Shown piece by piece: positions 12,431-48,749 of a stretch of 64,000 nt of DNA. Each line of letters starts with the position of its first letter. Position 1 is the stretch's first letter. The DNA is taken from NCBI RefSeq assembly GCF_009914755.1, contig NC_060930.1. One strand, 5' to 3'. Position numbers and translations under genes: made by a program. The DNA comes from the human T2T-CHM13v2.0 reference genome, Homo sapiens. Under the pieces are notes generated by a model, which was not told the DNA's origin, searched no databases, and worked only from the letters and a program-made list of their open reading frames with translations.

Positions 12431-12536
12431 CCTCCTAGGATTTCTGTCTTGCTCACAGTATAGAAGCTGTTGACCGCTCCTTGCTTGGCTGTCACAATAC
12501 GATGATCAAATGGGGCCGGAGGAGCCGGGATGTCAA
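12431..12536 (-). CDS. MYLK4: MYLK4 coding exon (106 bp, VDIPAPPAPFDHRIVTAKQGAVNSFYTVSKTEILGG)
   Basis: ctag| acceptor, GG|gtgagt donor; MLCK-family PAPPAPFxHR motif and start of the Gly-rich loop; phase 1->2. Confidence 0.96.
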
Positions 12537-13708: not shown

Positions 13709-14025
13709 AAAAGCCATTTCCTACGCAGTGGGGTCAGGCCGTCTTGCCCTCGGGAGGTCTTCATCCCAGCAGACTCCCTGAGTCGGCCCCGGGAGCTCCT
13801 CAGCTTGCCTGGCTGCCTGTGTCTTCTGACACGTGTGTTCTTCCCCTGTGCCGACTATGTCTACTCTGCGCCTTTTGCTGTCTTCGTTGACGAGGCGCTC
13901 CTCTGCCACTCCACGCTTACTGCTGCCCGGGCACTCTGTCTGGTCAGCATTCCAGAAAATGGATCCTACTGCTGAACTTCCAGGGATTCGTGGGGGTAGA
14001 AATGGCCCTTATGCTGCTGACACAC
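13709..14025 (-). pseudogene. Decayed MYLK4 pseudo-exon B (about 317 bp; ...ECPGSSKRGVAEERLVNEDSKRRRVD...)
   Basis: tttacttcccag| acceptor; about 95 open codons between TAA (near 14010) and TAG (13721-13723); candidate weak donor TTT|gtatgg; A+B = 765 bp, a multiple of 3. Confidence 0.55.
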
Positions 14026-14404
14026 CTGGGAAGTAAAGTCCAGTTGCAGCTCTCAAAGTTTCAAGAAGAAAACATTCAGATGGTGGAAATTCTTTAAGAA
14101 GGTTTTCTTAAAACAGTGTTTTGGTGACGAGGACGTGAGCTCCGTGATAGAGGTGACCATTTCGGGGCTTGGGGAGGAAATGGAGCAGCACGCTCCCCAT
14201 CAAGCCTATGGGTGTAGAGAACCAGGGTCCCAGGGAATCTCACCACTGGCCAAATCGTGACCCCAAGTTATTCCACTGGAACTTAACAAAAGCCGTCATT
14301 TTATGAATACCTAACTAATTTGATCTTCATTTTTTCACTTCCTTTCCTTAGAGAGAAATTATTAAATTATAGCATGATAAAAGAAGCAATAATCTCTCTG
14401 AATC

Positions 14405-14711
14405 TTTTTTTTTTTTTTTTTTTTTTTTTGAGACCGAGTCTCGCTCTGTCGCCCAGGCTGGAGTTCAGTGGCGCGATCTCGGCTCACTGCAAGCTCTGCC
14501 TCCCGGATTCAAGCAATTCTCTGCCTCAGCCTCCCGAGTAGCTGGGACTACAGGCGCCCGCCACCACGCCCGGCTAATTTTTTTGTATTTTTAAATAGAG
14601 ACGGGGTTTCACCGTGTTAGCCAGGATGGTCTCCATCTCCTGACCTCGTGATCCAACTGCCTCAGCCTCCTAAAGTGCTGGGATTACAGGCGTGAGCCAC
14701 CGCACCCAGCC
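14405..14711 (-). mobile_element. Alu (young AluS/Y-type) with TSD aatctctctgaatct
   Basis: Alu consensus with flanking direct repeat. Confidence 0.95.
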
Positions 14712-15562
14712 AATCTCTCTGAATCTTAACGGCAGTGAGACTAAACCTTTATCAGTGGAAGAATTGACCTAATTTCCATTTCTCAGCAGCTCTCGACCTT
14801 ACTGAACACATCTGGCAGTGTTGAAGTTTCTTTCTTAGCAATCATTAATATTTATGCTTAATTCTTGGAAAATTAAATTTCTCCAAGATGAGGTTTCAGA
14901 TACATTATTAAAAAATGAACTAAGAATTATGTTTTAAATCCCTAAAAAAGACCACACAAGTGGTTTGATACTTTTGGTTCCAAATAGATACTGTGATATG
15001 TGATTACTCATAACTTAGAGTAGTTCATTTTAATTGGCTATAATATTACCTGAATCTATAAGTGAAACTGTGTAGTTGAGAAAGAAAGTCATTCAATAAT
15101 CTATGTCTTACTTCATCCTCACAATATTTGGGAAAATAGGCAATTTATTATTTATAATGGAGTAGGTAAGCTTTTTCAGATTTAGGTTTTTAACTTACGG
15201 ATAAATCTAGTCATTATTTAATTCTTGTCCTTAGGAAGGATATGTTCTGTATTGCTAAAAATGAAACTGTTTTACTTCATCTTTAAAAAATACTGATTCC
15301 TGTGGGCACTATTAATCATCATCTTTGTCTACCAGTTGGTAGAAAACATAGAAAATAACAAAATGCCTGAAAATATCACAGGCAAGAAGAAAAAATAATG
15401 GCTAGAAAATGTGGCCATGAAAAATTCATATAAGCTGGAAAACCAAGTTATAAATCATTGCTTCAAACTCTCTTCATTTATCCTTTCAATAAGGCCTTAA
15501 ACCGCAATGGCACATAGCTCTAGAGAAAACATTGCTGTGGATACGCAATGCTGTAACCCTAC

Positions 15563-16010
15563 CTTTCGTGAAATTGGTCACCATTAGTTTGATACACGTA
15601 TTGATTTTTATTTTGACATTGGTCCAGCACTGTCTCATGTGCAGTTGCCAGTTCTCTTTTCTCCTCAGCTTCTTATCCACTAGTATCTTCCTTAGAATGA
15701 AACCCGTTTCTCTCTTCTTCAAACACTGGGTGTTCATTTTTATCTGCAGTGTCTTGCTGTTCATTCCCAGCACTATCACTTTCCTGTGTATTCAGGCTCT
15801 CTGTGCATGAAATGTCTGTTCCATCTATATTCTCTCTTGGATTTATAGAATTTCTTGGAGCAAAATCTTCTACTTTGTCTTGTCTTTTTGTGTGAAATAT
15901 GGCAAAACTTCTATGAACTAGAGAGGCATTGGTCTTCTCAGCATTTTTCTTGTTGAGTTTATTAACCTTTTCTTTCTCAGAGGAGAGCTGATTCTTCTGG
16001 GTAGATCTCT
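15563..16010 (-). pseudogene. Decayed MYLK4 pseudo-exon A (448 bp), acidic/low-complexity linker, one in-frame stop
   Basis: ttctag| acceptor, AAG|gtaggg donor; the phase-1 frame continuing from the 16365 exon reads ERSTQKNQLSSEKEKV...EDTSG*EAEEKREL...QFHE; only stop is TAA at 15673-15675 in about 149 codons. Confidence 0.7.
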
Positions 16011-16364: not shown

Positions 16365-16440
16365 CTGCGAGGGCTGATGTCCTTTTGCTTTTGACGGGCA
16401 TCCTTTCCGTCAGGTCGGCGTTTGACCACACCTCCTTCGC
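16365..16440 (-). CDS. MYLK4: MYLK4 coding exon (76 bp, AKEVWSNADLTERMPVKSKRTSALA), first MYLK4 exon in the window
   Basis: cag| acceptor at 16441-16443, G|gtaac donor; phase 0->1; peptide recognised as the MYLK4 N-terminal region; splices in frame to the 12536 exon. Confidence 0.93.
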
Positions 16441-18037: not shown

Positions 18038-18540
18038 TAGTGATGATGATGATGATGATGGTAGTGGTCATGGTGGTGGTGGTGGTGGTGGCGGTGGTGG
18101 TGGTGGTGGTGGTGATGGTGGTGATGGTGGTGATGGTGGTGATGGTGGTGGTGGTGGTGGTGGCGGCGATGGTGGTGGTGGTGATGGTGGCGGCGGTGGC
18201 AGTAGTGGTGGTGGTGGTGGTGGTGGTGGTGGTGATGGTGGTGGTGGTGGTGGTGGTGGTAGTGGTGGTGGTGGTGGTAGTCGTGGTGGTAGTGGTAATG
18301 ATGGTGGTGACCATGATGGTGGTGGTAGTGGTAGTGCTGCTGGTGGTGGTGGTGGTGATGGTGGTGGTGGTGATGGTGGTAGTGTTCTGGTGGTAGTAGT
18401 GTTGGTTGTGGTGGTAGTCGTGGTGGTAGTGGTAGTGCTGCTGGTGGTGGTGGTGGTGGTGGTGGTGATGATTGTAGTGGTGATGGCGGTTGTAGTGGTG
18501 ATGGTGACGGTCATGGTGATGATGGTGGTAGTGGTGACAG
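18038..18540. repeat. Imperfect (GGT/GAT/AGT)n trinucleotide tract, about 500 bp
   Basis: Directly visible; source of the poly-V/T/P/H ORFs. Confidence 0.97.
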
Positions 18541-48089: not shown

Positions 48090-48443
48090 CCAGCATCTGC
48101 TACAGATGGGCGATACACATAGAGGACTTTCCAGTGACTGCTTAGTCATTGTCACCAAAAACCCATGTCTCCCAGTGTTCCTGCTCCTGAGGTTCCAAAA
48201 AGGAGTTGTCCTGGATAGGGGCACATTAAGAAATCCCAGAGGGTTCAGATCTATAGGAGCTATGAAAGGGTTCCTCCAACTGGATCCGGCCAGGGAGAAA
48301 TCAATCACTAACGCAGGGGGAAAGGTATGCAGGGACCTTTCGTCACTTGGTGCTGGAGAAAGGAAGTGTGAAGGGTCGGTAAAAGCCAAAAGGGAAATCA
48401 TGAAGGGAAGGATAAAGCTTTTTACTCCCAAGTTAAAATCACA
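48090..48443 (-). pseudogene. Candidate exon P10 (354 bp), MAP1-N-like repeat 2 core
   Basis: tttctgtag| ... TGG|gtaagg; 118 codons fully open, phase 0->0: CDFNLGVKSFI...TPFWNL...GFLVTMTK...PICSRCW. Confidence 0.75.
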
Positions 48444-48749
48444 CTACAGAAATCCATCCTTCAGACTTTTATGATCAGTTGCTAAAAAGTCCAAGACATT
48501 TGAGCCTACTCCAAAGTGCATTTCTTGCAGGATATTTTGAGGGAATTCATTTTGTAAGATGCGGTGAACACAGAGCCCAGCCCGGTCTGTCTCTGAATAT
48601 TGTACATAGCACAGCAACACACAAATAGAAAATTAGCGAATGTCTTGATGATTAAGATCATGTGACAGGGAGACCTCGTATTCTATTAATTCAAGAAGCA
48701 CAATTTTCTAAGTTAAAGCCCATAACACAACTCAAGCATAGTAAAACTA

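What the first reader, a model, noticed from the sequence alone, without database searches (positions are those of the whole stretch)
13709..16010. Two dead exons suggest a lost long N-terminal isoform of MYLK4
Between two phase-1 MYLK4 junctions (16365 and 12536) lie a 448-bp exon with good splice sites and one stop, and a roughly 317-bp exon with about 95 open codons. Together they are 765 bp, or 255 codons, which preserves frame. They would insert a charged, disordered linker with a basic SKR...KRRR cluster just before the PAPPAPFDHR motif. Paralogues MYLK2 and MYLK3 have long disordered regions at this position (established). Exon B needs two compensating indels or two repaired stops. If either exon were included today it would act as a poison exon.
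Basis: partly seen in the sequence, partly recalled or inferred. Interest (0 to 1): 0.7.

Follow-up and report, generated by a model that had tools for sequence, protein, structure and literature searches.

The report
Humans lost muscle-type MYLK4 exons
Inside an intron of the human MYLK4 kinase gene lie two broken exons that are intact in lemurs, rodents, carnivores and bats and are part of the main skeletal-muscle form of this kinase in mice, so humans likely cannot make the version that mouse work linked to androgen-driven muscle strength.

Summary
Confirmed, with one boundary corrected. Exon A (16010-15563, 448 nt) and exon B (14025-13725, 301 nt; not ending at 13709) are the human orthologues of two coding exons found in long MYLK4 isoforms of lemur, loris, colugo, rodents, rabbit, carnivores and bats (53 proteins). 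In mouse they are the insert of the androgen-induced fast-muscle isoform skmMYLK4 (PMC8041868 Fig. S5) and are in the predominant muscle transcript (PMC6008051). MYLK2 and MYLK3 keep two exons with the same 1-2-1 phases at this place. In human there are four lesions: TAA in A, +1 and -2 frameshifts in B, and C at B's donor -1. Every inclusion pattern tested gives an early stop. No ape or Old World monkey long form turned up; a marmoset model keeps only part of A. The date is open: human exon A is not fast-evolving, while marmoset's is, which hints at later or independent loss. Ten literature searches found no report of the human loss, but one likely source (Wang 2015) was unavailable. It is a known kind of event (pseudoexonisation) and bears on how far the mouse result carries over to people.

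The parts
16365..16440 (-). Annotated MYLK4 exon upstream of the insert; phase-1 donor CAG|GTAACA
   Evidence: hub annotation
15563..16010 (-). Pseudo-exon A, 448 nt, phase 1 to 2, 148 full codons; orthologue of the mouse 421-nt exon; positional homologue of MYLK2 421-nt and MYLK3 433-nt exons
15673..15675 (-). Premature TAA; Arg in colugo, lemur and loris, Lys in the marmoset model
14391..14727 (-). Alu insertion (321 nt plus a 16-nt target-site duplication), sense to the transcript, in the A-B intron; AluY-like by recalled diagnostic positions
13725..14025 (-). Pseudo-exon B (long form), 301 nt, phase 2 to 1; 100 codons in loris and colugo; orthologue of the mouse 290-nt exon; positional homologue of MYLK2 299-nt and MYLK3 461-nt exons
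13991..13997 (-). +1 frameshift at a C5 run (13996-13992)
13919..13921 (-). Internal donor GCA|GTAAGC, matching the short form of exon B ('GS|ND') seen in 6 rodent proteins
13865..13918 (-). Basic cluster KR..KRRR; bipartite-NLS-like pattern in 36 of 40 long orthologues; removed by the short donor
13796..13801 (-). -2 frameshift in a GAGGAG stretch
13719..13727 (-). Long donor of exon B, TGC|GTAGGA; the -1 base is C, where all 42 parsed full-length orthologues have a G-initial junction codon
12431..12536 (-). Annotated 106-nt PAPPAPFDHR exon; 106 nt also in MYLK2 and MYLK3

Best explanation
The two segments are broken remnants of a coding exon pair that other placental mammals include in a long MYLK4 isoform, which in mouse is the predominant, androgen-induced fast-muscle form; humans likely make only the short, skipped form. 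Shown: the pair enters in phase 1 and leaves in phase 1, so including both adds about 250 charged, low-hydrophobicity residues before the kinase domain and skipping both keeps the frame. Shown: the human copy has a stop, two frameshifts and a C at the donor -1 position, so any inclusion meets an early stop many exons upstream of the end (inferred NMD target). Inferred: the insert is a mostly disordered linker whose two conserved patches (the start of A, and the SSKRRV..KKSR patch of B) likely act as docking or localisation motifs, by analogy with the alpha-actinin-2-binding N-terminus of MYLK3. Inferred: selection relaxed in simians because the skip form already existed, and lesions then accumulated; the human-lineage loss most likely falls after the split from New World monkeys.
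For: 53 long-isoform proteins from strepsirrhines, colugo, rodents, rabbit, carnivores, bats and one whale model. tblastn maps them onto A in one frame and onto B in three. Frameshift-aware alignment gives +1 and -2 at the same places for 6 of 7 correctly cut orthologues. Mouse exon sizes 421 and 290 nt and intron 1202 nt (PMC4111849 Table 2) match human 448, 301 and 1216 nt after removing the Alu. skmMYLK4 differs from cMYLK4 by this insert plus a 43-residue N-terminal extension (PMC8041868 Fig. S5). Two novel exons are in the predominant mouse muscle mRNA (PMC6008051). Phases are identical in MYLK2 and MYLK3. Conservation peaks at 0.81 and 0.83 against about 0.6 in the rest of the insert. 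Both exons matched only this locus in the human genome.
Against: No primate DNA or human RNA-seq could be examined, so timing and real skipping are not shown. Human exon A is not more diverged than working copies (human-only vs lemur-only changes 14:21 and 20:20; vs loris 10:25 and 14:25), which argues against a very old loss. The mouse knockout targeted exons 2-3 and an siRNA knockdown was used, with no long-versus-short comparison in the sections read, so the insert's own role is untested. The structure model was uninformative (mean pLDDT 29.9). Pig, cow, horse, afrotherians, marsupials and birds were also absent from all three searches, so absence from this database is weak evidence for loss in catarrhines.
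Confidence: 0.9

Rival explanations
1. The exons are dead for coding but are still spliced in human muscle as poison exons, so a large share of human muscle MYLK4 mRNA would be destroyed by NMD, or a kinase-less stub would be made.
For: Exon A's acceptor and donor (6 of 9 consensus matches, within the 5-7 range of annotated donors) and B's acceptor and short donor (5 of 9) are intact. Inclusion is predominant in mouse muscle. This can coexist with the best explanation.
Against: No exon of the five RefSeq transcripts lies here (hub table). B's long donor is weakened (4 of 9). No RNA data were available.
Confidence: 0.2
2. One old loss in the common ancestor of monkeys and apes, with all later lesions being neutral decay.
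For: The only simian hit is a marmoset model that leaves A early and lacks B (1 of 21). No catarrhine long form appeared in three searches. Three coding lesions fit 14-57 My under assumed rates (95% ranges 4-166 My).
Against: The TAA is not shared with marmoset (Lys). Since their split the human exon A branch is 0.081 and the marmoset branch 0.202 substitutions per site; human-only vs marmoset-only sites are 8:16, 5:18, 6:14 and 6:15 with four outgroups. Both indels sit in slippage-prone repeats, so the lesion clock may run fast.
Confidence: 0.35
3. The open frames are chance or repeat-derived intronic sequence.
For: Near-open 448-nt AG..GT segments do occur by chance in this window (4 of 242).
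Against: E-values down to 4e-54 against MYLK4 proteins at the expected position; only the Alu part of the region matched elsewhere in the genome.
Confidence: 0.01

Closest known systems
Mouse skmMYLK4 (XM_006516667.2; Sakakibara 2021, PMC8041868; Terry 2018, PMC6008051; Kim 2014, PMC4111849)
   Same: Same two exons, same position, phases and intron size; same short donor in exon B.
   Different: Open and predominant in mouse muscle; broken by four lesions in human. The passages read do not mention the human state, and PMC8041868 extrapolates to men's muscle stiffness.
MYLK2 and MYLK3 linker exons
   Same: Two large exons in phases 1-2-1 before a 106-nt PAPF exon.
   Different: Open in human; no detectable sequence similarity to the MYLK4 insert. 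MYLK3's mapped actinin site is at residues 171-174 (PMC6715661); I did not map it onto these exons.
TNNI3 exon 3 pseudoexonisation in shrews and moles (10.1101/2023.05.19.541292; search listing and start of abstract only)
   Same: Lineage-specific loss of a regulatory N-terminal exon of a sarcomere protein while the gene stays intact.
   Different: There the loss is repeated and argued to be adaptive; here it is a two-exon pair in the human lineage with no adaptive evidence yet.
[quoted passage not shown] 2015, PMC4298176; seen only as a reference)
   Same: Same class of event.
   Different: Not readable; whether MYLK4 is listed there is unknown.

Membership tests
Pseudoexon (lost coding exon) | Orthologous to a coding exon in related species, at the same gene position | tested here: met
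Pseudoexon (lost coding exon) | Inactivating lesions in the focal species | tested here: met
   TAA, +1, -2, donor -1 C
Pseudoexon (lost coding exon) | Not included in mature mRNA | not testable with these tools
   No RNA data; absent from the hub's RefSeq table
Pseudoexon (lost coding exon) | Lesions fixed in the species | not testable with these tools
   Only one assembly held
Pseudoexon (lost coding exon) | Relaxed selection after loss | tested here: inconclusive
   Human A not accelerated; human B faster than loris (17:7, 18:6) but not than lemur (11:13, 12:14)
skmMYLK4 insert | Matches the peptide that separates skm from cardiac MYLK4 | tested here: met
   Fig. S5 read; exon sizes and primers
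MYLK2/3/4 linker exon pair | Phase 1-2-1 pair before the 106-nt PAPF exon | tested here: met
MYLK2/3/4 linker exon pair | Sequence homology between paralogue linkers | tested here: not met
   No significant tblastn match of the insert to the MYLK2/MYLK3 loci; homology is positional only
Regulated poison exon (AS-NMD) | Premature stop on inclusion, far upstream of the last junction | tested here: met
   6 of 6 patterns
Regulated poison exon (AS-NMD) | Measurable, regulated inclusion | not testable with these tools
   needs RNA-seq with NMD inhibition
Intrinsically disordered linker | Low predicted order | tested here: inconclusive
   Composition fits (31-34% charged); the model failed even on the kinase domain

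The most novel reading that the evidence does not exclude
The androgen-induced fast-muscle MYLK4 isoform stayed under selection on the human line well after the split from New World monkeys and was lost late (apes or hominins), independently of the marmoset and of other mammals with broken copies. That would make it a recurrent loss that removed an androgen-to-myomesin stiffness pathway from human fast muscle, possibly with the dead exons still draining MYLK4 mRNA into NMD.
Probability: 0.2. Interest if true: 0.85.

Novelty: new member of a known kind. Interest (0 to 1): 0.62.

Why it matters
Mouse work names this isoform as the link from androgen receptor to myomesin-1 phosphorylation and muscle strength, suggests it may explain men's stiffer muscle, and a human muscle atlas repeats the claim. 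If humans cannot encode it, that chain cannot be assumed in people. It also gives a clean test of what the linker does (an exon-skipped mouse copies the human state) and a candidate, datable loss in primate muscle evolution. Human MYLK4 biochemistry on the short protein would describe a skip form that is minor in mouse muscle.

Tried and rejected
Repeat or duplicate origin: rejected. Frame rescue through the short donor, or through A or B alone: all give early stops. AlphaFold on a 40-sequence alignment: uninformative; no fold search was run on it. ESM Atlas: no usable hit. Profile-free search of 50% representatives: 11 hits, all closest to placental sequences, no deeper relatives. In one search three of ten orthologues (squirrel, rabbit, blind mole rat) were mis-cut by my script and dropped. 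Branch-by-branch placement of individual changes was not done, so the timing rests on branch lengths and site counts. The binomial p of 0.022 used the most extreme outgroup count and a recalled branch ratio, so it is weak. Ten literature searches showed no report of the human loss. Wang 2015 was not held, I did not try to fetch Chang 2016, subscription journals and bioRxiv supplements are outside the library, and genome-browser tracks could not be seen.

Full report
Observation. On the minus strand the MYLK4 intron between exons 16440-16365 and 12536-12431 is phase 1 at both ends. A 448-nt segment, 16010-15563, has an AG acceptor, the donor AAG|GTAGGG and, in the incoming frame, 148 codons with one TAA at 15675-15673. 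A second acceptor at 14025 opens a segment with 95 open codons. By sequence alone exon A is one of 4 of 242 similar segments in the window with at most one stop, so the case depended on orthologues.

Orthologues. The exon A peptide, with X at the stop, hit 21 of 163 candidate proteins, all with kinase Pfam domains, at 52-75% identity: colugo (E 4e-54), mouse lemur, slow loris, carnivores, bats, rodents and one marmoset model. Two further searches with the insert of blind mole rat and cheetah gave 49 of 1520 and 46 of 857 candidates, 53 different proteins in all. They add many rodents, rabbit and a partial fin whale model. In the alignment the insert lies between 'TSAL' and 'PAPPAPF'. No ape, Old World monkey, tarsier, pig, cow, horse, afrotherian, marsupial or bird was named in any hit list; a search of 1.84 billion unnamed representatives gave 11 hits, all nearest to placental sequences. 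Because well-annotated livestock are missing too, absence here is weak evidence.

True structure of exon B. tblastn places orthologues on three frames: 14027-13995, 13993-13799 and 13797-13726. A frameshift-aware alignment against ten orthologues (three mis-cut by my script and dropped) gave +1 at the C run near 13994 and -2 near 13799 for 6 of 7; the whale gave +1 and two -1. The peptide ends 'LTPL' at 13726, followed by one base and GTAGGA, so B is 14025-13725, 301 nt. All 42 parsed full-length orthologues have a G-initial junction residue (D, V, G, E; 51 of 53 proteins parsed); human has C at -1. Six rodent proteins use an internal donor ('GS|ND'), which survives in human at 13921. All six inclusion patterns tested end in a stop, at TAA in A or five codons past the upstream exon for B alone; skipping both is open.

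What the exons are in mouse. Kim et al. 2014 (PMC4111849; passages, Table 2 and primer supplement) list novel Mylk4 exons of 421 and 290 nt, 1202 nt apart, enriched in heart. Mouse exon A computes to 421 nt, and my hand count of the Fig. S5 peptide gives 96 codons, 290 nt, for B. The human intron is 1537 nt, or 1216 without a 321-nt Alu insertion. Three of four primers translate into mouse P0047 and the fourth into the long-B peptide of Fig. S5. Terry et al. 2018 (PMC6008051; passage) report two novel exons in the predominant muscle mRNA; that they are the same exons follows from Sakakibara's statement that it is the same variant. Sakakibara et al. 2021 (PMC8041868; passages, sections 11-12, supplement part 1 of 3) show that skmMYLK4 is androgen-receptor-induced and fast-muscle-enriched, and that knockout lowers torque, passive stiffness and myomesin-1 phosphorylation. 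Their Fig. S5 shows skmMYLK4 = cardiac form + this insert + a 43-residue N-terminal extension. Their knockout and siRNA were not shown to be isoform-specific, so the insert's own function is unproven.

Ancient layout. Human MYLK2 has exons of 421, 299 and 106 nt and MYLK3 of 433, 461 and 106 nt at this place, with phases 1-2-1 as in MYLK4 (boundaries read). There is no detectable sequence similarity. I infer that the pair predates the duplications that made these paralogues and that human MYLK4's short form is a skip product.

Likely function (inferred). The insert is 31-34% charged. Conservation over 40 long forms peaks at the start of A (0.81) and at the SSKRRV patch of B (0.83), against about 0.6 elsewhere; 36 of 40 carry a bipartite-NLS-like pattern that the short donor removes. 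The best guess is a disordered tether with docking or localisation motifs, like MYLK3's N-terminal alpha-actinin-2 site (PMC6715661; abstract and section 7). I put about 0.45 on that. The structure model gave nothing.

Timing. The marmoset model leaves exon A after 121 residues, lacks B, and has Lys at the human stop. Branch lengths on a fixed tree for that part: human 0.081, marmoset 0.202, simian stem 0.079, lemur 0.143, loris 0.218; for the kinase part human 0.011, marmoset 0.007. With recalled neutral branch lengths (about 0.055 and 0.066 per site) a hand estimate of the neutral expectation is about 0.13 and 0.16, so marmoset looks unconstrained and human does not, on about 120 sites. Over A+B the human branch (0.214) is no longer than lemur's or loris's (0.243 and 0.203, plus 0.034). 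A lesion clock with assumed rates gives 14-57 My with very wide ranges. The best reading is loss after the platyrrhine split, but one old simian loss is not excluded. Three unnamed ORFs (P0060, P0061, P0063) end early or change frame within exon A, which hints at further losses or at sequence errors.

What is known. Pseudoexonisation of a regulatory exon is a known kind of event (TNNI3 exon 3, listing only; Wang 2015, reference only). Ten searches and MYLK4 passages of PMC8016876, PMC12016402, PMC11447269 and 10.64898/2026.04.08.717200 gave no statement that humans lack these exons. PMC8803689 (exon passages) and PMC6695735 (one reference) added nothing. Supplements of bioRxiv papers and of Wang 2015 were not visible and could list it.

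Verdict. Real, orthology-proven pseudoexons: confidence 0.9 for the overall explanation, lower for mechanism and date. New member of a known kind; interest 0.62.

Noticed in passing
L001:3749-3898 (G000:C6:2609749-2609898, just outside the window): An alternative first coding exon of MYLK4 (hydrophobic, signal-anchor-like, ending in phase 0) is open in human and 72% identical to colugo; bats, beaver and a mouse-like record use it too. By position it may be the mouse heart exon hNE-5. A membrane-anchored MYLK4 form is untested.
   Followed up: partly
window 13919-13921: The rodent short donor cuts exactly before the KRR..KK basic cluster, so alternative splicing would switch an NLS-like motif on and off; phyllostomid bats (P0013, P0016, P0019) have lost the motif.
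   Followed up: partly
protein searches: No pig, cattle, sheep or horse long isoform was found; the only ungulate-clade hit is a partial fin whale model lacking the start of exon A. Possible independent loss or a database gap.
   Followed up: no
window 18059-18536: 478-nt imperfect TGG microsatellite (about 160 copies) in the upstream intron; reads as open poly-His on the minus strand, probably non-coding.
   Followed up: partly
window 48139-48586, minus strand: A 448-nt AG..GT stretch with one stop in the chance control; weak splice sites, no match to MYLK4 orthologues.
   Followed up: no
window 12534-12536: The PAPF exon starts with TT in human (junction Val; Ile in the marmoset model) where most orthologues and both paralogues give Asp: a change next to the acceptor that appears shared by simians.
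   Followed up: no
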